Shown: piece after piece, positions 1,854-63,861 of the stretch | Layout of the letters: every line of letters starts with the position of its first letter | Numbering within the stretch: the stretch's first letter is position 1 | DNA from: an uncultured bacterium | GTDB lineage: Bacteria; Hydrothermota; UBA3073; NMUJ01; CBEVQO01 | Assembly: GCA_965552055.1 (NCBI GenBank) | Contig: CBEVQO010000005.1 | Location: 116,122-180,121, forward strand | DNA length: 64,000 nt | Direction: 5' to 3' | Notes under the pieces: model-generated | The model's input: only the letters and a program-made list of their open reading frames with translations | The model's database searches: none | What the model was told of the DNA's origin: nothing | Program-made: the position numbers and the translations under genes

Positions 1854-2021
1854 CCGTTTGTAATAGAATTTTAAAATTTCGCTTGACATTTTCCGTTATC
1901 GATTATATAACTACGATGCAAACTTTGAGACATAACTTGCTTAATTGCATTTTAATGAAAAGAAGCACGGATATGAATAGGGAGGCGCAATTGCTTTAAA
2001 TGTAAATAAAGGAGGTGTAAA

Positions 2022-6450: not shown

Positions 6451-7816
6451 ACTTTCGGAACTGAGGTTAGTTGCAAGGGAATTAATGAAAAATTTGAAGA
6501 AAAAAGTTTATTACGGGGATTTGCGTCTTGAATACAGGAAAGTATTATCTTTTAAAGTATCGGAAAAGGGAGTTGATTCTCTTACACTCGAAGAAAGGGT
6601 ATCCGGAGGCGTAAGGGTGTGGAAAGGTGCTTTTTCTTTTGCTTCTTTTGATTCACTGGAGAAAATAGCAGAGTCAATAGAATCGGCGATAAGTTTATCA
6701 AAATTATATTGTGAAGATAAAAAATTAACAATTGCTGAAAAAGTCGAAGGAGAATTCTATTATCCGGTGGAGAAAAATCCAGCAGAAGTTTCAGATGGCG
6801 AGAAAAAAGAATTGTTTAAAAAATGGGTAAACATAGCACTCGAAGAGATGAATGTAAAATCTGCCATTATAAATTATATCGAAATACATTCTGTAAGAGT
6901 TTTCGCAAATACCGAAGGCTCTTTGATTTCACAAATATCACCTTACATAATTGCTTACGGTAGTATAACCGCAGAAAAAGAGAATATAAAAGAGACTATT
7001 TATTGCTATTCATGTAAAAGGGATTTCAATAAATTCAAAGATGAAATGGAAAAAGAAATCAGAGATAAATCTGGCTATGTAAATAAACTCGTACTTTATC
7101 CAAGGGTTAGAACAGGCATTTATGATATTGTCATCGACCCTGATATTTCCGGCACATTCGCGCATGAAGCATTCGGACACCTTGCGGAAGCAGATTTCCA
7201 TTATCAAAATAAGGAAATGCAAAAAGTTTTTAAGAAAGGAAGGAAAATTGGTAATGAAATGATAAGCATAGTTGATGATGGCTCCGATATTGCTTATTTC
7301 GGTGGATACTACTTCGATGACGAAGGCGTAAAGCCAGAGAAAACTTATCTTATGAAAAATGGAGAAATAACAGGTAGATTACATACCATCGAGACAGCAA
7401 CCATAATGGGTGAAAAACCAACGGGAAATGGAAGGATAACGGACGCTCGCTTCCCACCTGTAGCCAGAATGTCCATAACCTATATTGAACCTGGCAAAGA
7501 TAAAAAAGAAGATTTGATAGCGAGTATAAAAAATGGATTCTACTGCGAAGGAGCAGCAGGAGGATGGACAGAATTCACAACTTTTACTTTCACTCCATTA
7601 AAAGTTTATAAAGTTGAGGATGGAAAAATAAAATATCCTGTAAGAGGTGTATCTTTGCAGGGTGATATTTTTGAGACATTGAAGAATGTAAGGGGTGTTA
7701 GCAGTGAGCTGCGATTTGTAGATGGCTGGTGCGGTAAAGATGAGCAATATCCCTTACCCATTAGCTGGGGTGGACCTTATCTTTTGATAGAAAAGGTGAG
7801 AATAAGTGGCGATTGA
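6428..7816 (+). CDS. tldD: TldD family metalloprotease
   Basis: HEAFGHLAEAD, FDDEG, PTGNGR, RMSITYI, WCGK. Start is approximate. Confidence 0.9.
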   Translation: MKEVYSHKLSELRLVARELMKNLKKKVYYGDLRLEYRKVLSFKVSEKGVDSLTLEERVSGGVRVWKGAFSFASFDSLEKIAESIESAISLSKLYCEDKKLTIAEKVEGEFYYPVEKNPAEVSDGEKKELFKKWVNIALEEMNVKSAIINYIEIHSVRVFANTEGSLISQISPYIIAYGSITAEKENIKETIYCYSCKRDFNKFKDEMEKEIRDKSGYVNKLVLYPRVRTGIYDIVIDPDISGTFAHEAFGHLAEADFHYQNKEMQKVFKKGRKIGNEMISIVDDGSDIAYFGGYYFDDEGVKPEKTYLMKNGEITGRLHTIETATIMGEKPTGNGRITDARFPPVARMSITYIEPGKDKKEDLIASIKNGFYCEGAAGGWTEFTTFTFTPLKVYKVEDGKIKYPVRGVSLQGDIFETLKNVRGVSSELRFVDGWCGKDEQYPLPISWGGPYLLIEKVRISGD

Positions 7817-9011
7817 TATAGAAATAAAAAGAGAAGAAGTAAAATCAATAAGATTGTCTTTTTCTGATAAAAAATTGATAAATTGCGAGAGAAGAATTGC
7901 GAAAGTGATAACTGTTAGATTAAGTGATGAGAAAAAAAGTGTGATAGTAAGCGGAAGTTTGCCAGAGCAGGAGCTGATATTGAGGGCAAGAAATCTTTTG
8001 AAATACGGAGAAGAAAGAGATTTTGAACTATCACCTGCTCAAACGATTTCAGAAAAAATGCAATTTAAAGAACCAGACATTAAAAGAATTTGCGAAAAAA
8101 TAAGAGAAATTATGCCAGAAAATCTATCATCCGAATTATTCTTTGAAATAGGAGATGTAAGCGTAAATCATGAAAATACAAAAGGTTTTTCAGGTGAATA
8201 CTCAAAAAGATACTATTCTATATCTTTCTCGATTCCAGTGGAACACGAAGGAGAAATAATTTTTCTGAATTACTCGGATATTTCTACTGCCGATAATTCC
8301 AGAGAAATCATAAAAGAATTGTTGAAAGAATATGAAAGTTTTCCAAAGAAAAGAGAAAAAGAACCTGCTAATTTGCCTGTTGTTTTGCATCCGGATGCTG
8401 TTTCAGACTTAATCAAAATGTGCACTTATTTTGCAAGGGGTGAGTATATACACAAATGTGTGAGTCCTTTTTGTGATAAATTAGGAGAAAAGATATTTTC
8501 CGGGGAATTGACAATTGAGCATATACCTGATGATAAAAATTTCGCAGGATGGCGTCCTTTTGACGATGAGTGTACACCAACAAAGAGATTTAAGTTTATA
8601 GAAAAAGGTGTATTGAGGAATTTATTTTTATCGCGAAAGAGTGCAAAAAAGTTATCCCTTGAACCAAATGGGTGCGCTATATTCGGAGAATCACCGTTTT
8701 TCAGAATTGAAGAGACAGCACTTGCTCTGGATGTTTATCCAGGTAAAAATTTATTAACTTCATTAAAAGATTTTATTTTGATAAGAGATGCATCTTTTGA
8801 TATTTATCCAACAGGTGAATTCGTGGCAGATTGCATACTTGCATATCTTTACAGGAAAGGCAAAAAAGAAAAATATTTGAGAAGCTTCCAGATAGCTGGA
8901 AACATTTTCGATATACTTGGTAAAAATTTAATCTTTTTGAGCAAGAAAAGAATAAGAATAGGAAATATAATAGCTCCCTATATTGGTTTTTCAGGTGTAA
9001 AAATTATATAA
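7806..9011 (+). CDS. Divergent TldE/PmbA-like partner protein
   Basis: RPFDDEC.PT and IAGNIFDIL motifs, no HExxxH, directly follows tldD. Confidence 0.75.
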   Translation: MAIDIEIKREEVKSIRLSFSDKKLINCERRIAKVITVRLSDEKKSVIVSGSLPEQELILRARNLLKYGEERDFELSPAQTISEKMQFKEPDIKRICEKIREIMPENLSSELFFEIGDVSVNHENTKGFSGEYSKRYYSISFSIPVEHEGEIIFLNYSDISTADNSREIIKELLKEYESFPKKREKEPANLPVVLHPDAVSDLIKMCTYFARGEYIHKCVSPFCDKLGEKIFSGELTIEHIPDDKNFAGWRPFDDECTPTKRFKFIEKGVLRNLFLSRKSAKKLSLEPNGCAIFGESPFFRIEETALALDVYPGKNLLTSLKDFILIRDASFDIYPTGEFVADCILAYLYRKGKKEKYLRSFQIAGNIFDILGKNLIFLSKKRIRIGNIIAPYIGFSGVKII

Positions 9012-9340
9012 ATTTTTAGCCCCGCCTCCCTATCCCCACCGCCCTCGTGCACACCCCTCGCTACCAAAAGGCATTGTCTTGACCACTCACGCTCTTTAAA
9101 ATGCCCTACCCGTAATAAAGCAAGTTCGCAACCGAAACCTCAATCACATCAAAAACTGCACTACTGCACTCTATAACCTCTCCCCATAATGAGTGTAGTA
9201 TCGCACCTAAATCGGCTCCCGCTTTCATTACCACTACCCTTAAAAATCTCCATTTCTGCTCCCAAAATGCAGTTCAGCTCTCACCGCTCGGGGTGTTGAC
9301 TCACAACCCATATGTAATGTGCTCGCTTACGCTCGCATTA
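9011..9340 (-). mobile_element. GC-rich structured repeat element, long intergenic copy (~330 bp), non-coding
   Basis: Reverse complement shares four collinear blocks with 61981-62175, including terminal blocks of 31/33 and 40/43 identity. Confidence 0.75.
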
Positions 9341-9399
9341 AAAATTTTACAGGTTAACCTGATACTGATGTGGCTTCTTACCTCCTGTGAAATAATTTG

Positions 9400-9426
9400 T
9401 TGACAGAGGAAAATGTTAATTATAAT
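9400..9426 (+). promoter_or_regulatory. Promoter TTGACA-N15-TATAAT followed by SD (AAGGAGG)
   Basis: ttgaca gaggaaaatgttaat tataat. Confidence 0.75.
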
Positions 9427-9443
9427 ATGCAAAAGGAGGGAGT

Positions 9444-11441
9444 GTGAGGCATGTTGCTTTATTATTCATCATTTTTACAGGGACGGCTTTCGCAAAGGTA
9501 TGGGTTGTTGATACCACAGGTGCAGAGGGCAAAAAGCTACAATCTGCAATTGACTCCGCATGGCAAGACCCGGGGATTGATACTGTGCTGGTAAAGGATG
9601 GAACCTATCATCTATTTATAAATGACACTATGGGCTTGATAATGCATGATTCTGTGGTGCTCATGAGTGAAAACGGAGCTGAAAAATGCACATTAACAGC
9701 TGTATCAGAGGATGGCACAGATACCGCATGGCATGTCATCTATTGCAGTGGATGGGATACTGCATCGCACGCAGCACTTATAAAGGGCTTCACCATAAAA
9801 GATGGCAATGCAACGGGTCCTTCTTCTCACACTTGGGGAGGCGGAATCTACATTTATTCTGCGTCACCCACAATAGATTCATGTATAATCACAAACAATT
9901 CTGCTAGTGGCGGTGGAGGAATTTTCATTTATTACTATTCTTCCCCCGCATTATTAGGCAATACAATTACAAACAATTATGCTGATGCTGGTAGCGGAAT
10001 TTTTATCTGGTGCCATTCTTCTCCCACAGTATCAGGCAATACAATTGCAAACAATCATGCTTATTATGGCGGCGGAATTTTCATATCTGATTATTCTTCC
10101 CCTACAGTGTCAGGTAATACAATTACAAATAATTATGTTAATAACTATGGCGGCGGGATTTTCATAACAGACTATTCTTCACCCTTATTATCATGCAACA
10201 CAATTATAAACAATCATGCTGATGATGGCGGTGGAATTTACATTTCCTTTTCTTCTTTTCCCATATTAACAGGAAATACAATCACAAACAATCGTGCTTT
10301 TGTTAACGGTGGAGGTGTTTTAATTGAACTTCGTTCCTCACCCACATTATTATACAATGCTATTACAGATAATCTTGCTTCATATGGTAGCGGAATTTTC
10401 ATTACAAATTATTCTTCCGTAAAGATAACAAAATGCGTAATCGGAATGAACAAAAGCAATTATGGTGGTGCAATATATGACACACTTCATTCAAAAATTA
10501 TAATCGACAGTTCGTTCATTGTGGATAATGTAGGTCTCGCTTATATTGCATCTGATGCAGATTCAGGAGTGACATTCAAACTAACATACAGCCATATATA
10601 TTATAACACTTTACAGCAAGATACCGAAATCAAAAATTTTTCGGGTGTAACTATAAATCTTGAAAATAATTTCTGGTGGGACACAACAGATGCAGAAATA
10701 TCTGCAAAAATATCGGGTGCAAATGACCATACCCCGTGGTTCAGCCACTTTATACCGGGTGTGCCGGGTGAACCCGTTAGCATTGACTCTTTTAAAAATT
10801 ACGATAAAGATTTCTCACAAGTTATTGACTCACTTGGCAAAGAAGATACACTTTACATAAGGATTTACGGACAGGATAGGGATGCACATATACATGAAAT
10901 CGCAGTGGTAATAATAAAATCGAGTGTTTATCCACAGGGAATAGCAGTTGGGCTCGTTGAAACAGATACAAATTCAGGAATATATGAAGGCAAAGCTTAT
11001 GTTCTGGAAAGCACAGGAAATGACGATATAAGGGATGACGATATAAATCAAATTATCCGTGTTAATCCAGATGGAGACGATATTTTCATCATCAGCAATA
11101 TTGAGCCACAGAAAAAATTTTATGTTAAATATAAAAAAGGTGCTGGGATAAAAGAAATTTCAGTAGAAAAATTCAAAGTAAGCAATATGCCAAATCCATT
11201 CAGCAAATTCACAAAGATTAAATATCAATTGCCAGAAGAAGAAAAAGTAAGGATTGAAATAATAGATGTAACAGGAAGATTGATAAAAGTATTGGTTAAT
11301 GAAAAGAAATCACCGGGATTTCATTCTGTAACATGGAAAGGTGAAGACGCCAGAGGCAAAACTGTTCCACCTGGAATCTACTTCTATCTCATAAAAGCAG
11401 GCAAAAACAAAGCAATAAAGAAAATGATAAAATTGAAATAA
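9444..11441 (+). CDS. Exported right-handed parallel beta-helix repeat protein with FlgD-Ig/T9SS-type C-terminal domain
   Basis: Signal peptide ending AFA, 24-aa GGGIFI..YSSP..SGNTITNN repeats, C-terminal PNPF...GRLIK...W.G.D..G...PGIYF. Confidence 0.85.
   Translation: MRHVALLFIIFTGTAFAKVWVVDTTGAEGKKLQSAIDSAWQDPGIDTVLVKDGTYHLFINDTMGLIMHDSVVLMSENGAEKCTLTAVSEDGTDTAWHVIYCSGWDTASHAALIKGFTIKDGNATGPSSHTWGGGIYIYSASPTIDSCIITNNSASGGGGIFIYYYSSPALLGNTITNNYADAGSGIFIWCHSSPTVSGNTIANNHAYYGGGIFISDYSSPTVSGNTITNNYVNNYGGGIFITDYSSPLLSCNTIINNHADDGGGIYISFSSFPILTGNTITNNRAFVNGGGVLIELRSSPTLLYNAITDNLASYGSGIFITNYSSVKITKCVIGMNKSNYGGAIYDTLHSKIIIDSSFIVDNVGLAYIASDADSGVTFKLTYSHIYYNTLQQDTEIKNFSGVTINLENNFWWDTTDAEISAKISGANDHTPWFSHFIPGVPGEPVSIDSFKNYDKDFSQVIDSLGKEDTLYIRIYGQDRDAHIHEIAVVIIKSSVYPQGIAVGLVETDTNSGIYEGKAYVLESTGNDDIRDDDINQIIRVNPDGDDIFIISNIEPQKKFYVKYKKGAGIKEISVEKFKVSNMPNPFSKFTKIKYQLPEEEKVRIEIIDVTGRLIKVLVNEKKSPGFHSVTWKGEDARGKTVPPGIYFYLIKAGKNKAIKKMIKLK
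9835..10410 (+). repeat. Coding tandem repeats of ~72 bp (beta-helix coils, about 8 units)
   Basis: Recurring gg(c/t)ggaattttcat...tattcttc.cc...ggcaatacaattacaaacaat. Confidence 0.8.
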
Positions 11442-12172: not shown

Positions 12173-13825
12173 ATGAATAAATTGCGTAAAATTTTGAATG
12201 AGATTGATGGAAAAGGTTATGGTGCTTACAAGCGCCTTTATGGAGAATATAATTTTGGCAAATATACTCTTGAAATTACAAAAGTTCAGCCCGACCCCTA
12301 TGCTCCACCATCTCGCGCAATTATAAAAATACCACAAAAAATAGCAAGATTCCCAAAAGAGGCATATTCAAATCTTTCGAGAAAAACAGCGTTGATAGAT
12401 TTTCTGACAAGATTATTTGCTAAAAATATAAAAAATCCAGATATTAAATGTGCGAGGTGCGGACAGGAGATACTTTTGAGGTCATCAGTTGAAATCACGG
12501 ATAATTTTTTAAAATTTAAGTTAAAAATTGAATTGCCAGCAGCAGGAAGGAGAATCCTCGGAGATAAGGCATACAAAATATTTTTTAAAGATTTGCCACA
12601 GATTGTTGAAAAAACTTTAATTTATGATAATATTCCAAAAAATGAGTTGTGGAGACATATTGAGATTTGTGAAGACCAGGATTTTCTGCGTGAAAAATTA
12701 AAAGAAGAAGGTCTAATTGCATTTGTGAGAGAAGGCGCTGTCCTTCCCCGTAAATCAGGCGTTGACCCGCGTCCCCTTCCAAATGCAGTAAAATTCATCT
12801 CCCCCGATAGTTTAAGAAAAAAGTTTATTTTAAAATCTGGAAGGGAAATTGAAGGCATGGCAATAAAAGAAGGAATAACAATAATTTGTGGTGGTGGATT
12901 TCATGGTAAATCAACGCTCTTAGAGGCGCTGCAATTCGGGGTTTACAACCATATAGAAGGTGATGGAAGAGAATTTGTCATAACAAGGGAAGATGCAGTA
13001 AAAATAAGGGCAGAAGATGGAAGATACATAGAAAAAGTTGATATATCACCTTTTATTTCGGAGTTGCCCTATGGTAAAGATACATTGCACTTTTCAACAG
13101 AGGATGCGAGTGGCTCAACTTCTCAGGCAGCAAACATAATGGAAGCGCTTGAGATGGGCTCAAAACTTTTACTTATAGATGAAGATACAACAGCAACAAA
13201 TCTCATGATACGGGATAGAAGGATGCAAAAAGTTGTAATGAAGGAAAAAGAACCAATAACTCCTTTCATAGACAGGATAAGGGAATTGTGGGAAAGATTT
13301 AAAATCTCAGTTATAATGATAACAGGCGGGCTTGGAGATTATTTTGAAGTTGCAGATTATATAATACAGATGGAAAATTATCTTCCACATGATATAACCC
13401 AAAAAGCAAAAGAAGTTGTGAATGACTTTCCATCCGGAAGGAGTGTAGAAGTGAAAAAAGAATTTCATCTACCTCAACCCCGCAGAATAGTTAGAAATTC
13501 GGTTGACCCGAGAAAAGGTAAAAAGATAAAAATTGACGCAAAAGGAATAGATACTCTGGTTTTTGGCAGGTATCAAATAGATTTATCATGTGTGGAACAG
13601 ATTGCAGATGTATCGCAGGTGAAAACCATTGGCGAAATAATTTATTATGCAGTAAAGAAATATGGAAATCTTACAATAAGGGAGATGATAGAAAGGTCTA
13701 TCTCCGATACGATAAGGGAAGATTTTAAGAATTTAAGGTCAAAGGATTCGTGTGACTATGCCTTACCACGCAAATACGAAGTAGCATCAGCCCTTAATCG
13801 CTTAAGAACATTAAAAGTGATATAA
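12173..13825 (+). CDS. ABC-class ATPase domain protein (COG3044-like)
   Basis: IDGKGYGAYK, QPDPYAPPS, GGGFHGKSTLL, IRAEDGR, ASGSTSQAAN, LLIDEDT. Confidence 0.9.
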   Translation: MNKLRKILNEIDGKGYGAYKRLYGEYNFGKYTLEITKVQPDPYAPPSRAIIKIPQKIARFPKEAYSNLSRKTALIDFLTRLFAKNIKNPDIKCARCGQEILLRSSVEITDNFLKFKLKIELPAAGRRILGDKAYKIFFKDLPQIVEKTLIYDNIPKNELWRHIEICEDQDFLREKLKEEGLIAFVREGAVLPRKSGVDPRPLPNAVKFISPDSLRKKFILKSGREIEGMAIKEGITIICGGGFHGKSTLLEALQFGVYNHIEGDGREFVITREDAVKIRAEDGRYIEKVDISPFISELPYGKDTLHFSTEDASGSTSQAANIMEALEMGSKLLLIDEDTTATNLMIRDRRMQKVVMKEKEPITPFIDRIRELWERFKISVIMITGGLGDYFEVADYIIQMENYLPHDITQKAKEVVNDFPSGRSVEVKKEFHLPQPRRIVRNSVDPRKGKKIKIDAKGIDTLVFGRYQIDLSCVEQIADVSQVKTIGEIIYYAVKKYGNLTIREMIERSISDTIREDFKNLRSKDSCDYALPRKYEVASALNRLRTLKVI

Positions 13826-13829
13826 ATTG

Positions 13830-13856
13830 TTGACAAAATCAAATAAGAATTAAAAT
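13830..13856 (+). promoter_or_regulatory. Promoter TTGACA-N15-TAAAAT, 5 nt upstream of ATG 13862
   Basis: ttgaca aaatcaaataagaat taaaat. Confidence 0.7.
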
Positions 13857-13861
13857 TTTTG

Positions 13862-14929
13862 ATGTCGATTTATGAGGCAGAGATAAGAAGGGGGATTTTC
13901 CATGAAGATTTTCTTACTTCGAAAGTTTTCGGTATCTTCAACATTGTAAACAAAAAAATTTTGCTTTATAATTTTTTAAGGTTTCTCGGGATAAATGTTC
14001 CGCAAAAGGATTGTGATAGGTTAAAAATAACTTTCTGGCGATTAGAAGGTAAAAGGGTGCCCGATGTTATTATCTCAAATGATAGGATTTTGCTTTACAT
14101 TGAAGCGAAACTGCATTCTATATCGGAACAGCAATTGATAGAAGAATACAAAGACGGTGTTTTGAAATCGCACAAATTCAAACTAATTGTGATAACTCCG
14201 GATATTGTATTACCCGAAGAAATTAAAAAAGTTTTTATGAATTTAAAAGCTACTCGCAAAATAGTTAACATTCAATGGCTTTCCTGGCGCAAATTAAATA
14301 AATTTTTAAAAAAAGAAGCGAGCAGAGTTGATTACAATGATACCGAGCGAAAATTGTTAAAAGAAACTGTGAGATTGCTTGACGGACTTGGATTTGGCGA
14401 ATTTAAAGGTTTTAATGTAAAAATCGATAAATTAAAGTTTGATGATTTTCTCACATTACTTTCTGATTTTTCGCATCTATGTAAAGATGTTGCAGAAAAT
14501 CTCGATATTGATATTTTGACTCAAATTTCAAAGTCAAGAGAATCGAAGTCAATAAATTTACCAGAAGAATGGTTGCCACATACATTTACGGTTTATCTTT
14601 CAAAAGATAAAAGCAATAAAAATGCACTTTTTCTGGAATTATGTTTAAAAACTCCTATCTGCATAAATTATGGAGTTGAAATAAAGGAAGATGAAATTGA
14701 ATTTGAATGTGTTCGTAAGTTTTTTGATTTGAAAAGATTTAGAGCAAGTTTTTTATCACAGGGAATAGAACTTGATTGCAATTCAGAAGAGGAATTTAGA
14801 AATGCTTTATTTTCCGAAACAAAGGGTGTGCGTTTTTTAAGGACATTTTTTGTAAATGATTTGAATGATAAAGATTATTTCAATTTGATGATTTCAGATT
14901 TATCACAACTGCGTGATTTATTATGGTGA
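13862..14929 (+). CDS. Hypothetical protein with N-terminal PD-(D/E)xK nuclease-like domain
   Basis: EDFLTS.VFG...PDVII...LYIEAK...QL..EY...WLSW pattern. Confidence 0.6.
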   Translation: MSIYEAEIRRGIFHEDFLTSKVFGIFNIVNKKILLYNFLRFLGINVPQKDCDRLKITFWRLEGKRVPDVIISNDRILLYIEAKLHSISEQQLIEEYKDGVLKSHKFKLIVITPDIVLPEEIKKVFMNLKATRKIVNIQWLSWRKLNKFLKKEASRVDYNDTERKLLKETVRLLDGLGFGEFKGFNVKIDKLKFDDFLTLLSDFSHLCKDVAENLDIDILTQISKSRESKSINLPEEWLPHTFTVYLSKDKSNKNALFLELCLKTPICINYGVEIKEDEIEFECVRKFFDLKRFRASFLSQGIELDCNSEEEFRNALFSETKGVRFLRTFFVNDLNDKDYFNLMISDLSQLRDLLW

Positions 14930-27823: not shown

Positions 27824-30800
27824 ATGGGTAAAGGTAGTGTGCTTGTGGTGGGTGGAGGCATAGCGGGTGTGCAATCGGCTCTTGACCTTGCGGAATCGGG
27901 CTATAAAGTTTACCTGCTTGATAAAAAGCCATCAATCGGTGGTACGATGGCGCAACTTGATAAGACATTTCCAACAAATGATTGTGCAATGTGCATCCTT
28001 GCACCGAAGCTCGTATCAGCAGGAAGACATAAAAATATAGAATTGTTAACTTATTGTGAAATCGAAGAAATAAAAGGAAAACAGGGTGATTTTAATGTGA
28101 AAATCAGGAAAAAGAGTAGATTTATTGATTTATCGAAATGTACAGGGTGTGCTGAATGTGAAAGGGTATGTCCTATAGAGCGTGTATCTGAATTTGATGA
28201 AGGTTTATCCTGCAGGAAGGCGATTTATAGATTGTTTCCGCAAGCAGTTCCAAATGCTTTTACCATTGAGAAAGAAGGGATATCAGCGTGTAAAAGTGCC
28301 TGTCCTGCGGGTGTAAATGTTCATGGCTATGTTGCGCTTATATCGCAGGGCAAATTTAAAGAAGCGATACAGCTGATAAGGGAAAGATTGCCTTTTCCCG
28401 GGGTGTGCGGTAGAGTGTGTCCACATCCCTGTGAATCGGAGTGCAAAAGAAAAGATGTAGATGAGCCTATAGCGATTGCCGGTTTAAAACGCTTTGTAGC
28501 AGATTGGGAAAGAAAGAATCCGGTAGAAGAAGAATTTGAGAAAAAGAAAAGGGATAAAAGGATAGCAGTAATTGGTGCAGGACCGGCAGGTTTAACCTGT
28601 GCTTATTTCCTTGCAAAAGAAGGATTTGATGTTACTGTTTTTGAAAAAGAAGAAAAACCAGGTGGATTGATGAGATATGGAATTCCTGATTTTAGATTAC
28701 CGAAAGATGTCCTTGATTATGAAATCGAGAGAATTAAGAAAGCAGGTGTTGAAATAAAATGTGGAGTAGAGGTAGGTAAGGATATAGAATTTTCTCAAAT
28801 TTTGAAAGAGTATGATGCTGTATTTGTTGCGATAGGTGCCACAAAAGAGCAGAAACTCGGTATAAAGGGTGAAGATTTAGAAGGAGTAATATACTGTTTG
28901 TCTTTTCTTAAAGATGTTAATTCTGGGAAAGAAGTAAAAATTGGTAAGAAAGTAGCAGTAATAGGTGGTGGTAATTCTGCGATAGATGCTGCGCGTACTG
29001 CTTGGCGACTTGGTGCTGATGTAACGCTCTTTTATCGTCGTAGCAGAGCAGAAATGCCAGCTAATCCATGGGAAGTTGAGGAAGCAGAGGAAGAAGGCAT
29101 AAAGTTTGAGTTTTTAACCGCACCTGTTGAGATATTGGGAGAACAGGGTAAAGTAAAGAAGTTAAAATTAATAAGGATGAAACTCGGAGAGCCCGATGAA
29201 TCCGGTAGAAGAAGACCTGTACCCATTCCGGGGAGCGAATTTGAGATAGAAGTGGATACTGTAATTCCTGCGATAGGTCAGAAGGTATCCCTTGATTTTC
29301 TGAGAGAAGAAGATTTAAAAAATCCAAAAGTTTTTACAGGCGGTGATTTTGTTACGGGACCTGCCACGGTGATAGAGGCTGTAGCTGCAGGTGTAGAAGC
29401 TGCAGAAGCTATAAAAAATTTCCTTGAAGGTAAAATTTTGGAAAGGAAAAAAGAAAAAGAAGAGAAAATAGCAGAACCCAAGATTCCCGAAGATATTCAA
29501 AGGATGAAGAGAAAAGAAATGAGAAAATTACCTGTGGAACAGAGAAGGAATTTCAAAGAAGTTGAACTTGGTTTTACAGAGGAAGAAGCAATAGAAGAGG
29601 CTAAAAGATGTTTATCTTGTGCTATATGTTCAGAGTGTAAGGAATGCGTAAAAGTATGCGAAGCAGAGGCAATCGATCACTTTATGGAAGATGAAATTAT
29701 AGAATTAAAAGTAGGAGCCATAATTTTCACGCATGGAGCAGATAGATTTGATGCAAAATTAAGGTCTGAATATGGATTTGGCAGGTATAAGAATGTAATT
29801 ACAAGCATACAATTTGAAAGATTATTAGCACCAACGGGACCCACACAGGGACAAATTTTAAGACCTTCTGATAATTGTCATCCACGAAAAATTGCATTCA
29901 TACAATGTGTTGGCTCAAGGGATAAGCAAAAAGGAGCTCCTTATTGTTCCGCTGTATGCTGTATGTATGCGATAAAGGAGGCGATAATAGCACTCGAACA
30001 TCAGAAAGACCTTGATATTACGATTTTTTACATGGATATAAGAGCATACGGTAAAGGATTTGAAAGATACTACTTAGAAGCAAAAGAAAAAGGAATAAAA
30101 TTTGTAAAATGTAGGGTGGCAAGAATAGAAGAAGTCGAAAATAATGACCTGGTTATAATTTATGAGGATGAAGAAGGCAATTTAAAATCAGAAAAATTTA
30201 ACATGGTGATATTATCTGTGGGTTTAAGACCTTCAGAGGAACTAAAAGAATTTGCTGAAAAATTTGATATAAAATTAAATGAATATGGATTTTTTGCTGT
30301 GGAAGAATTTGACCCCGTTAAGGTAGCAGAAGGCATTTATACTGCGGGTATCGCGCAGTCACCCAAAGACATACCTGAGACCGTTGCAGAAGCATCTTCG
30401 GCTGCATCGGAAGTTCATGAAATTTTAAAACATGAAAGATGGAAAGAAACAGAAAAAATCGAATATCCACCAGAAAGAGATGTAAGTAAAGAACCTGTGA
30501 GAATAGGAGTATTTGTATGTCATTGTGGCATAAATATTGCAGGATATCTCGATGTTAAGGAAGTAGTAGAATATGCAAAGACTTTAAAGGATGTGGTTTA
30601 TGTAGAGGACAATTTATATACTTGTTCACAGGATACTCAGCAAAAGATAATCCAAAAGATAAAAGAATACAATTTGAACAGGATTGTTGTGGCGGCGTGT
30701 ACTCCTCGCACCCATGAGCCACTTTTCCGTGAGACATTGCGACAGGCAGGCTTAAATCCTTATCTATTTGAAATGGCAAATATTAGAGACCAATGCTCAT

Positions 30801-32176
30801 GGATACACATGGAAGACCGAAAAAGTGCAACAGAAAAGGCAAAAGACTTGGTAAAAATGGCGGTGGAAAAAGTTCGCTTAGCAGAACCTCTGAAAGAAAT
30901 AGAAGTAGAAGTTAATCCTTCTGCACTTGTGATAGGAGGAGGGCTTGCAGGCATGACATCGGCGTTATCTATTGCTGAGGCAGGATTTCAAGTTTATCTT
31001 GTAGAAAAAGAAAAAGAGTTGGGAGGAAATTTGCGACATATTTACTATTCACTTGAAGGAAAAGATGTGCAGAAATTTTTAAAAGAATTAATCCAAAAAG
31101 TGGAAAATCATCCAAAAATAAAAGTTTATAAAAATGCGAGATTGAAAGATTTTACAGGGTTTATTGGAAATTATGAATCAGAGATTGAATATGATGGCAA
31201 AGTTGAAAGGTTAAAGCATGGAGTGGTGATAGTAGCGATTGGTGCAAAAGATTATAAGCCAAAGGAATATTTATATGGAGAAGACGAAAGGATATTGACT
31301 CAAAAAGAATTTGAAGAAATGTTGGCGAAATCTCCCGAGAAAATTAAAACTGCGAAAGTTATTTGCGTTATACAATGTGTGGGCTCAAGGGATGAGAATC
31401 ATAAATATTGTTCGAGGATTTGTTGTAGTGTTGCTATGAAAAATCTTAGAAAAGCATTCGAAATAAATCCAGAATTGCAGGCGTTTGTATTGTATAAAGA
31501 TATAAGAACATATAGTTTTTATGAAAAATTGTATGATGAGGTGCGGGAAAAAGGGGCAATATTCATAAAATATGAAGATGAAAGAAAACCCGAAGTTTTT
31601 AAAGAGGAAGGTGTTTTAAAAGTGAAATGCTTCGATTATATACTGGGAGATTATTTATTGATAGAGCCGGACTATCTTGTTTTATCTACAGGGATTGAGT
31701 GCAATGAAGATGTGTATTCTTTATCGAAGATGTTAAAAGTGCCTGTGGATGGTGATGGCTTTTTACTTGAGGCACATGTGAAACTTCGACCAGTTGACTT
31801 TGCTACAGATGGTATTTTCCTTTGTGGATTATGTCATTCACCCAAGAATATTAAAGAGACGATTTGTCAGGCGAAAGCAGCAGCTGGCAGAGCATTGACT
31901 ATTTTGACGAAAACAAAATATACTACAGAGCCACAGATAGCCAGGGTAAATGAAGAAATTTGTTCAGGTTGTGGAATATGTGTATCGATTTGTCCTTTTG
32001 ATGCGATAAAACTTATAGAGAAGGAAGAAGATGGCAAAACGATAAGGGTTGCTAAAGTCGAGGATGTATTATGTAAAGGCTGTGGCACATGTGCGGGTGC
32101 CTGTCCTTCGGGTGCATTAGAACAGTCTGGTTTCACAACAGAGCAATTGCTCTGTCAGGTAAATGGGGCGCTCTGA
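27824..32176 (+). CDS. hdrA: Large HdrA-like flavoprotein (HdrL-type) with GltD/NfnB-like insert and duplicated HdrA modules
   Basis: GGGIAG, DKTFPTNDC, CPAG..GRVCPHPCE, GAGPAG, GGGNSAID..YRRS, two QCVGSRD..YCS..CC, VAACTP, C-terminal ferredoxin motifs. Confidence 0.9.
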   Translation: MGKGSVLVVGGGIAGVQSALDLAESGYKVYLLDKKPSIGGTMAQLDKTFPTNDCAMCILAPKLVSAGRHKNIELLTYCEIEEIKGKQGDFNVKIRKKSRFIDLSKCTGCAECERVCPIERVSEFDEGLSCRKAIYRLFPQAVPNAFTIEKEGISACKSACPAGVNVHGYVALISQGKFKEAIQLIRERLPFPGVCGRVCPHPCESECKRKDVDEPIAIAGLKRFVADWERKNPVEEEFEKKKRDKRIAVIGAGPAGLTCAYFLAKEGFDVTVFEKEEKPGGLMRYGIPDFRLPKDVLDYEIERIKKAGVEIKCGVEVGKDIEFSQILKEYDAVFVAIGATKEQKLGIKGEDLEGVIYCLSFLKDVNSGKEVKIGKKVAVIGGGNSAIDAARTAWRLGADVTLFYRRSRAEMPANPWEVEEAEEEGIKFEFLTAPVEILGEQGKVKKLKLIRMKLGEPDESGRRRPVPIPGSEFEIEVDTVIPAIGQKVSLDFLREEDLKNPKVFTGGDFVTGPATVIEAVAAGVEAAEAIKNFLEGKILERKKEKEEKIAEPKIPEDIQRMKRKEMRKLPVEQRRNFKEVELGFTEEEAIEEAKRCLSCAICSECKECVKVCEAEAIDHFMEDEIIELKVGAIIFTHGADRFDAKLRSEYGFGRYKNVITSIQFERLLAPTGPTQGQILRPSDNCHPRKIAFIQCVGSRDKQKGAPYCSAVCCMYAIKEAIIALEHQKDLDITIFYMDIRAYGKGFERYYLEAKEKGIKFVKCRVARIEEVENNDLVIIYEDEEGNLKSEKFNMVILSVGLRPSEELKEFAEKFDIKLNEYGFFAVEEFDPVKVAEGIYTAGIAQSPKDIPETVAEASSAASEVHEILKHERWKETEKIEYPPERDVSKEPVRIGVFVCHCGINIAGYLDVKEVVEYAKTLKDVVYVEDNLYTCSQDTQQKIIQKIKEYNLNRIVVAACTPRTHEPLFRETLRQAGLNPYLFEMANIRDQCSWIHMEDRKSATEKAKDLVKMAVEKVRLAEPLKEIEVEVNPSALVIGGGLAGMTSALSIAEAGFQVYLVEKEKELGGNLRHIYYSLEGKDVQKFLKELIQKVENHPKIKVYKNARLKDFTGFIGNYESEIEYDGKVERLKHGVVIVAIGAKDYKPKEYLYGEDERILTQKEFEEMLAKSPEKIKTAKVICVIQCVGSRDENHKYCSRICCSVAMKNLRKAFEINPELQAFVLYKDIRTYSFYEKLYDEVREKGAIFIKYEDERKPEVFKEEGVLKVKCFDYILGDYLLIEPDYLVLSTGIECNEDVYSLSKMLKVPVDGDGFLLEAHVKLRPVDFATDGIFLCGLCHSPKNIKETICQAKAAAGRALTILTKTKYTTEPQIARVNEEICSGCGICVSICPFDAIKLIEKEEDGKTIRVAKVEDVLCKGCGTCAGACPSGALEQSGFTTEQLLCQVNGAL

Positions 32177-34333: not shown

Positions 34334-34337
34334 TCTT

Positions 34338-60576: not shown

Positions 60577-61871
60577 GGATAGCACTGATATATCCGAATC
60601 GTTATGCGAAATATAATGTGAAAGAGAGGGAGTTTTATAGAGTGCCCCCTTATAATCTTCTGGTTCTTGCTGGATTGACTCCCCGGGATTTTGAAATTGA
60701 GATAATAGATGAGCGTTATGAAAAAATAAATTTTGATAAGAAATATGACCTTGTGGGCATTACCGCACTTACCTGCAATGCACCCCGTGCTTATGAGATA
60801 GCTTCAGAATTTCGTCACAGGGGCGTGAAAGTAATTCTTGGTGGCATTCATCCCACTTTTTTACCTTATGAAGCCATAAAATATGCAGATAGTGTTGTGC
60901 TGGGTGAAGCGGAATCTATCTGGCGTGAAGTTTTGCAGGATGCACAGAGAGGTAAATTACGCAAGTTTTATAAGGGAAAACTCTGTGATTTGAAGGATAC
61001 TCCTTTCCCAAGATGGGACCTTCTCAAGAAATTAAAAAGGTATGTCTTTTTTGTTCAGGCAACAAGAGGTTGTCCCAATAACTGCAAATTCTGTTCTGTG
61101 CCGAAATTTTCGGGAAGAAGATTAAGGGTTAAACCTATTGAAAAGATAGTTGAAGAGATTAAAAAATTTGGTAAAAAATTTGTTATCTTTGTAGATGACA
61201 ATATTTTTGCCAGAAAAGAATATGCTTTTAAACTTTTCAAAGCTTTAAAATCATTGAGAATAAAGTGGGGAGGCGAAGCATCTATCAATACGCTGTGTAA
61301 TTTTGATTTAATAAAGGAGGCAGCAAAAAGTGGCTGTAAGGCGCTTTTTGTTGGTCTTGAAACGATAAAGCAAAAATCCCTTGAATTTTTAAATAAAACT
61401 TTCAATGCTTTGATAGATTTTAAAAAGTTAGTTGAAGTTTTGCATAGAAATGGGATAGCGGTTATTGCATCGATGATGTTTGGTCTTGACCATGATGATG
61501 CTGGGATTTTTCGTCGCACTGTTAATTTTCTTGATGAAGCAAAAGTTGATGCTGCGATATTTTCAATATTAACGCCACTGCCTGGCACCGATTTATTTGA
61601 GCAGTTTCAGAAGGAAGGTAGAATTTTGCACTATGACTGGTCGAAATATGATGCACTTCACTGTGTTTTTAAACCGAAAAGAATGACAAAAGAGCAGCTT
61701 GAAAATGGCTTAAAGTTTGTGTATAGGGAATTTTATTCGCCGTTGCGTGTGCTGAAAAGGATACCCCGTATGTTGAAAGTTTGTCCCTTTATGATACCTG
61801 TTAATATAGGTTATATGATAGGTGCGAGGCGGGGCATCTGTCCTGACTGGCGTAAAAAAATCCCCAGGTGA
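60573..61871 (+). CDS. B12-binding domain radical SAM protein
   Basis: GGIHPT, GEAE, TRGCPNNCKFC, FVDDN, GLET, TPLPGT. Confidence 0.9.
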   Translation: MRIALIYPNRYAKYNVKEREFYRVPPYNLLVLAGLTPRDFEIEIIDERYEKINFDKKYDLVGITALTCNAPRAYEIASEFRHRGVKVILGGIHPTFLPYEAIKYADSVVLGEAESIWREVLQDAQRGKLRKFYKGKLCDLKDTPFPRWDLLKKLKRYVFFVQATRGCPNNCKFCSVPKFSGRRLRVKPIEKIVEEIKKFGKKFVIFVDDNIFARKEYAFKLFKALKSLRIKWGGEASINTLCNFDLIKEAAKSGCKALFVGLETIKQKSLEFLNKTFNALIDFKKLVEVLHRNGIAVIASMMFGLDHDDAGIFRRTVNFLDEAKVDAAIFSILTPLPGTDLFEQFQKEGRILHYDWSKYDALHCVFKPKRMTKEQLENGLKFVYREFYSPLRVLKRIPRMLKVCPFMIPVNIGYMIGARRGICPDWRKKIPR

Positions 61872-63118
61872 AAGTATTAGTTGCTACAGGGATAGAGCCA
61901 GATTTATCAGGAGGTACTCAAAGGCGTTTGTATTATCTTATTGAGAAGATGAGGGAAAGGTTTGATGTTGATATTTTTTTATTGCGAGGGCGTAGCCCGA
62001 GCCAATTACAAATGGGTTGTGAGTCAACGCCCCGAGCAAGGCACTCTATTTTTGTAGCGGATGCAGGCTGGTTTATTCGACTTATTACGGGCAGGAGGTT
62101 AAAAAGCCACAGCGAAGTCAAGGCTGTGCCTTGCGAGGGGCGTGCACGAGGGCGGTGGGGACAGGGAGGTGGGGCAAATATTTTTTATAAGATATGCTTT
62201 CCTTTTAGAATAAACTGGAATTTATTGGAAAATTTTTGTAAAAGATTGCAAAAAAGGGATTTTGATGTTTTATTTTGTGTTAAGATTTTGCCTTATTTTT
62301 ACTGGTTGATGTGTGAGAAATATCCTTTGAATAGGGATTATAAAGTTGTTATCGATGAAGGTGCTCTCTTTTTTCTTTATTATTACAGATTGTATTTGTA
62401 TCATCCTGATTTTTATCAGAGGATTTTGAATTATTTAAGATTTTTGAGATTATATTTTTTTACCCGTAAATTTTTGAAGTATTGTGATTTTGTGACTTAT
62501 GTGAGTGAGGTTGAGCGTGAATGGTTGTGCCGGCTGGGCTATTCGGGTAAAGGTGTGTATTTACCGAATTATATTGATGTTGATGCTATTCCTTTTTTGC
62601 CAGTTTCTAATTGTAATATTCTGCTACTAGGACCTTTTGATTATTATCCCAATTATCATTCTTTGTGGTGGTTTTTTAATAGAGTTTTTCCTTTGTTGCG
62701 TGAGATGGGATATAGGGGTGAGATTTTTGTTGTTGGCAGGTGTGTGCCACGCTGGTGTTATTCTTTTTCTGATAGATTTAAGGGGATAAAGGTTTTGGGC
62801 TGGGTATCTGATTTATCTTCTGTTTATTCTCGCTGTGGTATTTTTGTTTTGCCTGTGTGGTGTGGAGGGGGACAAAGGACGAAGCTTCTGGAAGCGATGG
62901 CTTATGGCAAGGCGTGTATTGTGAGTGTTAAAGGCAAAGAAGGGGTATTTGCAAGGGATGGAGTTGAGTTTTTTGTTGCACACAATGAGAGGGAATTTGC
63001 AGAAAGAGTAATGTATTTGTGTAAGAGGAAGGAATTGATTAAGATAGTGGGTGAAAATGCCCGCAAGTTTGTTGATAAACATTTTTCTTTGAGAAATCTT
63101 GATTTGAAATTTTTATAA
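61868..63118 (+). CDS. Glycosyltransferase family 4 carrying an in-frame repeat-element insert
   Basis: VSEVE, PN, YYPN, GGGQRTKLLEAMAYG. Residues ~38-105 are encoded by the element. Confidence 0.85.
   Translation: MKVLVATGIEPDLSGGTQRRLYYLIEKMRERFDVDIFLLRGRSPSQLQMGCESTPRARHSIFVADAGWFIRLITGRRLKSHSEVKAVPCEGRARGRWGQGGGANIFYKICFPFRINWNLLENFCKRLQKRDFDVLFCVKILPYFYWLMCEKYPLNRDYKVVIDEGALFFLYYYRLYLYHPDFYQRILNYLRFLRLYFFTRKFLKYCDFVTYVSEVEREWLCRLGYSGKGVYLPNYIDVDAIPFLPVSNCNILLLGPFDYYPNYHSLWWFFNRVFPLLREMGYRGEIFVVGRCVPRWCYSFSDRFKGIKVLGWVSDLSSVYSRCGIFVLPVWCGGGQRTKLLEAMAYGKACIVSVKGKEGVFARDGVEFFVAHNEREFAERVMYLCKRKELIKIVGENARKFVDKHFSLRNLDLKFL
61980..62177 (+). mobile_element. GC-rich structured repeat element, short copy inserted in frame
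   Basis: Homologous to the reverse complement of 9011-9340. Flanked by ATATTTTTT at 61971 and 62178, 207 bp (69 codons) apart. Confidence 0.8.
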
Positions 63119-63859: not shown

Positions 63860-63861
63860 AA

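What the first reader, a model, noticed from the sequence alone, without database searches (positions are those of the whole stretch)
9011..9340. Unrecognised structured, GC-rich dispersed repeat element with conserved ends and variable interior
Seen: the reverse complement of this intergenic stretch is collinear with 61981-62175 in four blocks: ATTACAwATGGGTTGTGAGTCAACrCCCCGAGC (31/33; 9286-9318 vs 62005-62037), TTATTACGGGyAGG, GTCAAGrC..TGCCTT, and a G-rich block (40/43; 9019-9061 vs 62133-62175). The interiors differ, and this copy is ~130 bp longer with its own hairpin (9162-9200). It has no ORF, no clear terminal inverted repeats, and no transposase lies in the window. Inference: a non-autonomous mobile element or mobile structured RNA/ssDNA moved in trans. 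I cannot assign it to a family I know.
Basis: partly seen in the sequence, partly recalled or inferred. Interest (0 to 1): 0.85.

Follow-up and report, generated by a model that had tools for sequence, protein, structure and literature searches.

The report
Modular GC-rich intergenic repeat family
This stretch is one copy of a family of about 70 non-coding, hairpin-forming repeats that fill the tiny gaps between genes of an uncultured hot-vent bacterium.

Summary
Copy A (window 9009-9349, minus strand) and copy B (61974-62186, plus strand) belong to a family with 69 complete copies, plus 14 orphan 5' blocks and 1 orphan 3' block, in this 2.23-Mb genome. Each copy has a conserved 5' block, 0 to about 4 interior units and a conserved G-run 3' block. 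Sizes cluster near 88, 120, 180, 212 and 341 nt, with copies of 435 and 486 nt.

No Rfam family matches. I found the family in no other genome searched, only in metagenome contigs and sequencing runs of the same species. The genome has no RAYT/Y1, TnpB, reverse transcriptase, DDE_Tnp_1, rve or Mutator gene. I found no target-site duplication, no long autonomous copy and no strand bias.

The family's closeness to -35 boxes and stop codons follows from an extremely compact genome with leaderless promoters. Stems are kept by compensatory changes. Between strains, copies differ and recombine.

New here: copy B is not intergenic. It is a stop-free insertion of 71 codons in a GT4 glycosyltransferase gene.

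Verdict: a new member of the BOX/BIME/REP-like class of modular repeats, with its mobilising enzyme unidentified. This scan had already found the family on other DNA of the same genome (e1-361233). Interest is modest.

The parts
9009..9349 (-). Copy A: complete 341-nt element of the long type with two interior units. The G-rich sense strand is the minus strand.
   Evidence: It is 87-92% identical over its whole length to four other long copies.
9286..9349 (-). Copy A 5' block. It has an A/T tail (9337-9349) and hairpin 1 (9321-9336: a 6-bp stem with two tandem G-A mismatches and a GTAA loop). A conserved linker follows, then the 5' arm of stem P2 (9290-9296).
9062..9285 (-). Copy A variable interior: two units, each with a TTATTACGGG-type signature, and the local hairpin at about 9158-9204.
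9009..9061 (-). Copy A 3' block: the 3' arm of stem P2 (9051-9057), the G-run block and an A/T tail. The tail overlaps the stop codon of the converging gene 7806-9011.
9350..9383 (-). Relic of an interior unit of another element, abutting copy A's 5' end. The same relic and gene are shared with two paralogous loci.
   Evidence: (flank sequences), (cluster C1_385291_5, C3_199671_5, C5_125130_5).
7806..9011 (+). PmbA/TldD-family gene whose stop codon lies in copy A's A/T tail.
9400..11441 (+). Promoter-like site (9400-9428) and a gene for a beta-helix protein with a T9SS sorting tail (9444-11441), downstream of copy A's 5' end.
61974..62186 (+). Copy B: 213-nt element with one interior unit. Hairpin 1 is at 61984-62002 (8-bp version). 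The P2 arms are at 62027-62033 and 62137-62143, with an A-T to G-C compensatory change. The G-run block runs 62137-62175.
61868..63118 (+). GT4 glycosyltransferase ORF (416 aa) that contains copy B in frame as residues about 36-107.
1882..1924 (+). One of six copies of a conserved promoter-plus-leader module. At four of the other five loci it abuts the 5' block of a family member.

Best explanation
Copy A is one member of a lineage-specific family of about 70 non-coding, modular, hairpin-forming repeats. The family has the same architecture as pneumococcal BOX elements (boxA, repeated boxB, boxC) and enterobacterial BIME/REP mosaics.

Each copy has a 5' block (A/T tail, a hairpin with tandem G-A mismatches and a GNRA-type loop, then a linker), 0 to about 4 interior units, and a 3' block (G-runs, then an A/T tail). 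The inner end of the 5' block pairs with the start of the 3' block, so the variable units sit at the apex of a stem.

I read the family as selfish or near-neutral DNA. It multiplies and reshuffles through its hairpin-bearing ends, by a trans-acting enzyme I could not identify, by ectopic recombination and gene conversion between copies, or by both. It survives only in the few free nucleotides between stop codons and -35 boxes of a very compact genome.

The side effects are what matter to the cell. The A/T tails supply stop codons and resemble the A/T tract that native promoters carry upstream of the -35 box. Copies serve as recombination substrates for inversions and for junctions of segmental duplications. 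One copy (B) has become an in-frame protein insertion.

Shown: family, architecture, distribution, conserved stems, strain differences, the in-frame copy. Inferred: selfish spread and its mechanism.
For: Census. nhmmer finds 83 5' blocks and 70 3' blocks. These give 69 paired elements of 84-486 nt in discrete size classes, 14 orphan 5' blocks and 1 orphan 3' block. The modular make-up is shown.

Restricted range. BLAST found it in 0 of 30 relatives. A scan of one genome per species gave only 3 chance hits, all in high-GC genomes. Two viral scans gave 0. A covariance model gave only 6 hits of at most 24.7 bits in 5 of 150 phylum genomes. The metagenome contigs that carry it are 97-100% identical to this genome.

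No preference among gap types. It occupies 34 of 247 co-directional, 25 of 141 divergent and 5 of 38 convergent gaps of 60 nt or more.

Compactness explains the promoter contacts. The median co-directional gap is -4 nt and the median divergent gap 82 nt. Leaderless promoter-plus-ORF matches number 66, against 0 in the reversed genome.

Stems are real and maintained. The C-rich strand folds with z = -3.18 and -2.21. In the 120-nt class, P1 and P2 are 100% paired. The outer P1 pair is G-C in 8 copies and A-U in 7, never mixed. Hairpin 1 also occurs in 7-bp and 8-bp versions with matched insertions. Copy B carries a compensatory change in P2.

Turnover and recombination. At one locus another strain has only a 3' block where this genome has a full 88-nt copy. 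Contigs of runs X4 and X1 join two oppositely oriented copies 13 kb apart, as an inversion would. The homology among three paralogous genes ends inside the shared 5' block.

No orientation bias. 32 of 69 copies agree with the local GC skew and 30 of 69 with the majority gene strand.
Against: No act of transposition is documented. I recovered no clean filled-versus-empty allele pair. 9 of the 11 same-species metagenome loci carry the same copy as this genome.

No candidate mobilising enzyme was found among the families searched.

The conservation of the ends across all size classes, the compensatory changes and the conserved tandem G-A motifs could instead reflect a cellular function. Conservation at the 5' end fades gradually into the A/T tail rather than stopping sharply, which is unusual for a transposon end.

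36 of 69 3' ends lie within -3 to +12 nt of a TTGACA-like hexamer. Six loci share a whole promoter-leader module next to a 5' block. A promoter-related role is therefore not excluded.
Confidence: 0.6

Rival explanations
1. It is a functional DNA-level element of gene boundaries: a docking site for a DNA-binding protein, an upstream promoter module (A/T tail as UP-like tract, G-runs as a G-quadruplex) or an insulator between back-to-back promoters.
For: 36 of 69 3' ends abut a TTGACA-like hexamer. Native promoters without the element also carry an A/T-rich tract just upstream of the -35 box, like the element's tail. 46 of the genome's 67 canonical G-quadruplex motifs lie in the family. The 5' A/T motif is near-palindromic and occurs as 2 to 5 tandem units of 21 nt at some copies. 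Six loci share a promoter-leader module.
Against: The 24 of 30 copies whose 3' end faces a converging gene end at its stop codon, not at a promoter. The share of occupied gaps is similar in divergent, co-directional and convergent gaps. 23 of the 24 copies of the 180-nt class lack the G-quadruplex motif. The downstream genes read off look like unrelated housekeeping genes; I judged this by eye from their first residues and did not annotate them. Only about one in seven non-trivial gaps carries a copy.
Confidence: 0.15
2. It is a REPIN or IS200/IS605-type single-strand element (PATE) whose Y1 HUH transposase was lost or not assembled.
For: It has no target-site duplication and no real terminal inverted repeats. 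It has a conserved subterminal hairpin and strong strand asymmetry of composition (G 34%, C 14% on the sense strand). It is extragenic.
Against: No Y1_Tnp and no TnpB match in a 97%-complete genome, while the same searches ring in 6 and 8 of 14 control genomes. The architecture is 5' block, units, 3' block, not an inverted REP doublet. There is no orientation bias relative to local skew.
Confidence: 0.1
3. It is a family of structured RNAs, either small RNA genes or UTR elements that stabilise or process mRNA ends. The G-rich strand would be the functional one.
For: GNRA-type loops (GTAA, GTGA, GGAA, GAAA) and tandem G-A mismatches are conserved in hairpin 1 and at the base of P2. There are compensatory changes. 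Mean folding energy is much lower for the G-rich strand.
Against: The G-rich strand folds no better than its dinucleotide shuffles (z +0.22 and -0.12), so its low energy is compositional. The same hairpin motifs are, from recall, also stable in DNA. Copies lie in either orientation relative to neighbours: 18 could be read through in sense and 30 in antisense, and 26 sit between divergent promoters. No terminator-like site was found. There is no Rfam match.
Confidence: 0.08
4. It is a recombination site, moved or used as a target by the tyrosine recombinase at contig 9 (an IntI/XerD-like protein with an N-terminal HARP-like stretch). The 5' block would be the crossover region and the orphan 5' blocks would be scars. 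This would be a dispersed analogue of folded attC sites.
For: The recombinase gene starts directly at the 5' end of a composite copy that carries five 21-nt-spaced A/T palindromes. Its best family match is 'integron integrase' (223.6 bits). The 7.6-kb stretch holds the recombinase, an AccI-type restriction-modification pair and nuclease genes. It is bounded by that copy and by an orphan 5' block in the same orientation. Orphan 5' blocks outnumber orphan 3' blocks 14 to 1. 22 of 24 clustered flanks are 5' flanks.
Against: The score is below the family cut-off of 265. The protein matches in two stretches and lacks about 28 profile positions of the catalytic domain. 0 of 69 copies carry attC R-box signatures. 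The shared promoter-leader next to the 5' block also precedes five unrelated downstream sequences. The evidence is a single adjacency, and I could not test whether the stretch is absent from other strains.
Confidence: 0.07

Closest known systems
BOX elements of Streptococcus pneumoniae (boxA, tandem boxB, boxC). Croucher et al. 2011, PMC3049150; passages read.
   Same: Composite repeat with conserved 5' and 3' modules separated by a variable number of internal modules. The end modules pair with each other and the internal modules fold on their own. Copies are mostly intergenic, vary between strains, are sometimes nested and can extend or enter ORFs. No cognate transposase is firmly established.
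   Different: No sequence relation is expected, and none could be tested for lack of reference sequences. The phylum differs. This family is GC-rich in an AT-rich genome, with strong G over C asymmetry, G-run blocks and larger internal units (about 95-130 nt).
REP/BIME and REPIN elements with RAYT transposases (Bertels and Rainey 2011, PMC3116915; abstract read).
   Same: Extragenic, hairpin-forming, high-copy and lineage-specific, with a mosaic arrangement. They act as recombination substrates.
   Different: The genome has no RAYT (Y1 HUH) gene. The unit is not an inverted doublet of a 20-40-nt palindrome.
Prokaryotic MITEs (review PMC10969869; passages read).
   Same: Small, non-coding, structured, dispersed and mostly intergenic.
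   Different: No target-site duplication. The only terminal inverted match is a weak A/T-rich one. No IS with matching ends and no long copy. The elements are GC-rich rather than AT-rich.
Rickettsia palindromic elements (as described in the review PMC10969869; passages read).
   Same: Copy B is an in-frame, stop-free repeat insertion inside a conserved enzyme gene, modelled as a surface loop.
   Different: Only 1 of 69 copies lies wholly inside a large ORF. In-frame insertion is the rule for Rickettsia palindromic elements.
Integron attC sites
   Same: Conserved ends, a variable middle and hairpin potential. An IntI/XerD-like recombinase gene lies next to one copy.
   Different: No R-box signatures in 0 of 69 copies. 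Copies are dispersed, not in cassette arrays. The recombinase scores below the integron-integrase cut-off.

Membership tests
Rfam RNA families (release 15) | Match to a covariance model at or near its gathering score | tested here: not met
   0 matches at gathering score in the whole window. Copy A gave 0 matches at E up to 10. Copy B gave only 6 matches of 11-15 bits, against gathering scores of 45-114.
REP/REPIN-RAYT | A RAYT (Y1 HUH transposase) gene in the genome | tested here: not met
   PF01797 gave 0 matches in the 97%-complete genome. The control rang in 6 of 14 genomes.
REP/REPIN-RAYT | Unit is a short imperfect palindrome, usually as an inverted doublet forming one hairpin | tested here: not met
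   The architecture is 5' block, 0 to about 4 units, then 3' block. The two ends differ from each other.
REP/REPIN-RAYT | Extragenic and high-copy | tested here: met
   69 complete copies, of which 68 lie outside large ORFs.
MITE (DDE transposon derivative) | Target-site duplication | tested here: not met
   The longest direct repeat between a copy's own flanks averages 6.42 nt, against 6.54 nt for mismatched flank pairs. Copy-specific deviations in one tail are not mirrored in the other.
MITE (DDE transposon derivative) | Terminal inverted repeats shared with a resident IS | tested here: not met
   No 5' block and 3' block pair lies 520-6000 nt apart. DDE_Tnp_1, rve and Mutator gave 0 matches. 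The single IS110-type element has unrelated ends.
BOX-type composite repeats | Conserved end modules with a variable number of internal modules | tested here: met
   Size classes run from 88 to 486 nt with 0 to about 4 interior units.
BOX-type composite repeats | End modules pair with each other | tested here: met
   Stem P2 is 100% paired in 15 of 15 copies of the 120-nt class and is kept in copies A and B.
BOX-type composite repeats | Sequence homology to pneumococcal boxA, boxB and boxC | not testable with these tools
   No reference sequences are held. I claim likeness of architecture only.
Integron attC | R'' (RYYYAAC) and R' (GTTRRRY) boxes at the ends | tested here: not met
   0 of 69 copies in either orientation. 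The IntegronFinder model was not available.
Integron attC | Cassette array next to an integron integrase | tested here: not met
   Copies are dispersed over 10 contigs. The nearby recombinase scores 223.6 bits, below the cut-off of 265.
IS200/IS605 derivatives (PATE) | TnpA (Y1) or TnpB in the genome | tested here: not met
   both with 0 matches.
Retroelement-derived repeats | A reverse transcriptase gene | tested here: not met
   PF00078 gave 0 matches.
IS91/rolling-circle elements | A Y2 HUH transposase | tested here: inconclusive
   PF04986 gave 0 matches, but the control rang in none of the 14 genomes.
In-frame repeat insertion (as in Rickettsia palindromic elements); copy B only | Whole element inside a conserved gene, length a multiple of 3, no stop codon, host fold kept | tested here: met
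   213 nt is 71 codons with no stop. GT4 domains lie on both sides. The N-terminus aligns with homologues, including a nearly invariant Arg. The model has pTM 0.81, with residues 43-111 below pLDDT 50.

The most novel reading that the evidence does not exclude
The elements are dispersed, folded recombination sites of a tyrosine recombinase. The candidate is the IntI/XerD-like protein with an N-terminal HARP-like stretch on contig 9. Its gene starts at the 5' end of a composite copy, next to a restriction-modification island bounded by 5' blocks. On this reading the 5' block is the crossover site, the 14 orphan 5' blocks are scars of integration or excision, and the family would be a genome-wide, non-cassette analogue of integron attC sites.
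Probability: 0.07. Interest if true: 0.75.

Novelty: new member of a known kind. Interest (0 to 1): 0.3.

Why it matters
The family is a clean example of how selfish or near-neutral repeats persist in a genome with almost no spare DNA. They sit exactly between stop codons and -35 boxes. They carry A/T tails that can stand in for stop codons and for upstream promoter tracts. They serve as breakpoints for inversions and duplications. One copy has been absorbed into a protein.

For annotators of genomes of this uncultured vent lineage, the family explains GC-rich 'islands' in intergenic DNA, assembly breaks, spurious small ORFs and most of the genome's G-quadruplex motifs.

It does not open a new class of system unless a dedicated enzyme or a function is found.

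Tried and rejected
RNA evidence. No RNA holder was listed for the locus, so expression could not be examined.

Empty sites. Contigs of four DNA runs laid on 20 kb with three copies mostly break at the repeats. None of the pieces listed in the output bridges a copy with or without it. The one metagenome scan returned only contigs that carry the pattern, so I could not search for empty alleles.

Copy B host gene. The PDB sequence search found nothing. The large protein search found no close orthologue. The best hit was a 269-aa gene call of the same species; the rest were at most 35% identical. An element-free allele could therefore not be shown.

Intrinsic terminator. 0 terminator-like sites in 8700-9600. 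In both orientations the T-run precedes and the A-run follows the GC-rich core.

G-quadruplex as the conserved function. Rejected, because 23 of 24 copies of the 180-nt class lack the motif.

Replication or transcription strand bias. None.

Target-site duplication. None.

IS110-type element as mobiliser. There is one copy plus relics. Their ends are unrelated to the blocks, and one relic merely abuts a copy.

Integrase-derived flank. The promoter and first codons of the recombinase gene recur at five other loci. There they precede unrelated downstream sequence, so the module is a shared promoter-leader, not a set of integrase relics.

Viral origin. 0 hits in two scans.

The Y2 transposase search was uninformative. 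ISfinder, IntegronFinder and R-scape were not available.

Link to the small retropepsin-like 'guest' genes. 3 of 11 paralogue hits lie within 91 nt of a copy, and one more does in a strain-specific segment. This is only weakly above my rough estimate that about 7% of genes adjoin a copy (2 x 69 of roughly 2000 genes).
Full report
**Observation.** The repeat finder lists two inverted matches: 9004-9061 against 62133-62190 (58 nt, 88%) and 9286-9325 against 61998-62037 (40 nt, 90%). A 22-nt degenerate pattern of the G-rich block occurs exactly twice in the window and in none of 100 shuffles. Alignment shows the middle blocks as well. Profile searches and terminal conservation place the full copies at 9009-9349 (341 nt, G-rich strand on the minus strand) and 61974-62186 (213 nt, plus strand). 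Rfam gives no match at gathering score in the window. Copy A gives none at E up to 10, and copy B gives only noise of 11-15 bits.

**Family census.** The window is contig 5, positions 116122-180121, of a 2.23-Mb assembly with 15 contigs, 35.6% G+C and 97% completeness. Profiles of the two ends find 83 5' blocks and 70 3' blocks. These pair into 69 complete elements and leave 14 orphan 5' blocks and 1 orphan 3' block. Lengths fall into classes of about 88, 120, 180, 212 and 341 nt, plus copies of 435 and 486 nt.

All classes share the first 46 nt or so: an A/T tail, hairpin 1 and a linker. They also share the last 20-30 nt: G-runs and an A/T tail. The 120-nt class adds a stem, P2, between the inner end of the 5' block and the start of the 3' block. 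Longer classes carry one to about four interior units at the apex of that stem, each with a TTATTACGGG-type signature. The 180-nt class has a different 9-bp stem and interior. Together the elements make up 13.4 kb. Their sense strand is 34% G and 14% C.

**Distribution outside this genome.** BLAST found the family in 0 of 30 relatives; the nearest held genomes are only of the same order. An exact-pattern scan of one genome per species gave 3 hits, all in high-GC organisms, which I take as chance. Two viral scans gave 0. A covariance model of the 120-nt class gave only 6 hits of at most 24.7 bits in 5 of 150 genomes of the phylum. The metagenome scan returned 16 loci. Eleven of them, all from one metagenome, are 97-100% identical to this genome, so they are the same species. 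DNA runs holding the locus come from hydrothermal-vent and sediment metagenomes, and no RNA run is listed. An earlier report of this scan (e1-361233) described the same family on other DNA of this genome.

**Why it touches promoters and stop codons.** 36 of 69 3' ends have a TTGACA-like hexamer within -3 to +12 nt. A -10 box follows, and often a start codon only 5-8 nt after it. About 23 of 67 5' ends have the reverse-oriented hexamer next to them; I counted these by eye. Of the 30 copies whose 3' end faces a converging gene, 24 have that gene's stop codon within -10 to +12 nt of the element end. Twelve of them use the TAG formed by the first bases of the A/T tail.

This looks specific, but the genome is extremely compact. 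The median co-directional gap is -4 nt and the median divergent gap is 82 nt, about two back-to-back leaderless promoters. Leaderless-type promoter-plus-ORF matches number 66, against 0 in the reversed genome. The family occupies similar shares of all three gap types of 60 nt or more: 34 of 247, 25 of 141 and 5 of 38. Native promoters without the element also have an A/T-rich tract just upstream of the -35 box. I therefore agree with the earlier report: position is largely dictated by where DNA is free.

**Structure.** The C-rich strand, which can use only Watson-Crick pairs, folds better than its shuffles (z = -3.18 for copy A, -2.21 for copy B). The G-rich strand does not (z = +0.22 and -0.12). 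Its much lower raw energy is therefore compositional.

In the 15 copies of the 120-nt class, 92.1% of cells are paired, against 28-63% when partners are slid. P1 and P2 are 100% paired. Four pairs show changes on both sides; the outer P1 pair is G-C in 8 copies and A-U in 7, never mixed. Hairpin 1 occurs in several forms. One is a 6-bp stem with a GNRA-type loop. Others are 7-bp and 8-bp stems with matched insertions. Two copies have perfect Watson-Crick pairs in place of the two tandem G-A mismatches. Copy B carries an A-T to G-C exchange in P2 and the 8-bp hairpin 1.

These changes show that pairing matters, but they do not tell RNA from single-stranded or cruciform DNA. From recall, mini-hairpins of this GCGAAGC type and tandem sheared G-A pairs are stable in DNA too.

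**Mobility tests.** No 5' block and 3' block pair lies 520-6000 nt apart, so there is no long, gene-bearing copy. Y1_Tnp, the TnpB zinc-ribbon domain, RVT_1, DDE_Tnp_1, rve and Transposase_mut give no match in the genome, while their controls ring. The Y2_Tnp search was uninformative.

One IS110-type gene exists, with a few relics. Its ends are unrelated to the blocks. Three tyrosine recombinase genes exist.

Flanking direct repeats are no longer for a copy's own two flanks than for mismatched flank pairs (6.42 against 6.54 nt). No attC R-box signature occurs in any of the 69 copies. Orientation is unrelated to local GC skew (32 of 69) or to the majority gene strand (30 of 69).

**Dynamics.** At contig 7 another strain has only a 3' block of a different subtype where this genome has a full 88-nt copy plus an extra A/T motif. 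The flanks are 96-97% identical. Another strain carries an extra short copy beside a retropepsin-like gene, in a segment next to tRNA-like sequence that this genome lacks. Nine of the 11 same-species loci are unchanged.

Contigs of runs X4 (240 nt on the shorter side) and X1 join two oppositely oriented copies 13 kb apart on contig 5, as an inversion would. Both junctions are seen, the reciprocal one with only 38 nt of support.

Copy A's 5' flank, promoter and downstream beta-helix/T9SS gene are paralogous to two or three other loci. Their homology stops 46 nt into the shared 5' block, beyond which the elements are of different classes. This points to ectopic recombination at the blocks.

The two ends behave differently. 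22 of the 24 flanks that cluster with other flanks are 5' flanks, and orphan blocks are 14 to 1 in favour of the 5' block. Nine of those orphans lie just upstream of a full copy.

**Copy B is inside a gene.** ORF 61868-63118 (416 aa) starts with a GTG that overlaps the stop of the preceding radical-SAM gene. It carries GT4 glycosyltransferase domains. Its first 38 residues or so align with the N-termini of homologues, including a nearly invariant Arg. Residues from about 112 onwards align with the rest. The 213 nt of copy B are exactly 71 codons (residues about 36-107) without a stop.

AlphaFold2 with 14 sequences gives pTM 0.81. Both flanks are confident and residues 43-111 fall below pLDDT 50. 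Homologues have 20-70 residues in this position, so the element may have replaced a native segment. Whether the enzyme still works is open.

Among the 69 copies, 44 have no open frame on either strand. Copy B is the only copy longer than 190 nt with an open sense frame. It is also the most diverged (78% to its nearest relative). No close orthologue was found that could show an element-free allele. This is the situation described for Rickettsia palindromic elements and for some BOX elements (passages of PMC10969869 and PMC3049150).

**The recombinase lead.** On contig 9 a 347-aa tyrosine recombinase gene starts directly at the 5' end of a composite copy that holds five A/T palindromes spaced 21 nt apart. 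Its best family is 'integron integrase', at 223.6 bits against a cut-off of 265. It matches in two stretches and lacks about 28 profile positions. Its N-terminus gives a weak HARP hit.

An AccI-type restriction enzyme, an Eco57I-type methylase, a PD-(D/E)XK protein and a NucS-like protein follow it. The 7.6-kb stretch ends at an orphan 5' block in the same orientation.

This fits integration at the 5' block, but the support is thin. It is a single case. The promoter-leader shared with five other loci precedes unrelated downstream sequence. I could not test whether the stretch is absent from other strains. I give this reading 7%.

**Verdict.** The finding is a real copy of a new, lineage-specific family of modular intergenic repeats. 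In architecture it is closest to BOX elements, and in ecology to REP/BIME. It is not a member of the RAYT-REPIN, DDE-MITE, attC or IS200/IS605-derived families by the features I could test. Its way of spreading is not established. I favour selfish multiplication plus ectopic recombination (0.6) over a cellular function. It is a new member of a known kind and of modest interest.

Noticed in passing
genome-wide; in the window, for example the promoter at 9400-9428: Leaderless mRNAs appear to be common. A TTGACA box, a -10 box and a start codon 4-9 nt later precede ORFs of 80 codons or more at 66 places, against 0 in the reversed genome. Divergent gaps have a median of only 82 nt.
   Followed up: partly
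window 1882-1924, and five other loci on contigs 9, 10, 7, 2 and 3: A conserved promoter plus about 50 nt of transcribed leader recurs at six loci. Three of them share a small hairpin just before the ribosome-binding site. At four of the other five loci it abuts the 5' block of the repeat family. It could be a portable promoter-leader or a small regulatory leader.
   Followed up: partly
L063:2376-8724 (contig 9, about 28375-34723): A tyrosine recombinase (best match integron integrase, below the cut-off, with an N-terminal HARP-like stretch). An AccI-type restriction enzyme, an Eco57I-type methylase, a PD-(D/E)XK protein and a NucS-like protein follow. To its left lies a truncated ABC-transporter gene. 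This is a likely integrated defence island.
   Followed up: partly
L064:1492-2520 (contig 6, about 126424-127452): A single IS110/IS1111-type transposase gene with about 170 nt of non-coding DNA after it, where the guide RNA of such elements would lie. Short relics are on contigs 1 and 5, including a 210-nt internally deleted derivative.
   Followed up: partly
L060:740-1123 (metagenome contig of the same species): A 127-aa retropepsin-like aspartyl protease gene plus a short repeat copy lie in a strain-specific segment next to tRNA-like sequence. In this genome, 3 of 11 paralogue hits lie within 91 nt of a repeat copy.
   Followed up: partly
L062 (contig 5, 2000-21999): copies at 734-945 and 13784-13904: Contigs of two other runs join these two oppositely oriented copies. 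This implies a 13-kb inversion in other strains of the species.
   Followed up: partly
contig 6 at 126340-126374, contig 1 at 340557-340591 and 358400-358436, and about four more sites: A motif of about 35 nt directly upstream of -35 boxes recurs at several promoters. It may be a binding site for a regulator.
   Followed up: no
genome-wide: 46 of the 67 canonical G-quadruplex motifs of this 35.6%-GC genome lie in the repeat family.
   Followed up: yes
window 9833-10402: Seven tandem 78-81-nt units (60-78% alike) lie inside the beta-helix/T9SS gene 9444-11441. These are the coils of the beta-helix.
   Followed up: no
window 63229-64000, contig 2 at 372982-375134, and the ends of contigs 10 and 13: A coiled-coil-like gene family with repeats of about 600-640 nt recurs at several contig ends and probably breaks the assembly.
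   Followed up: no
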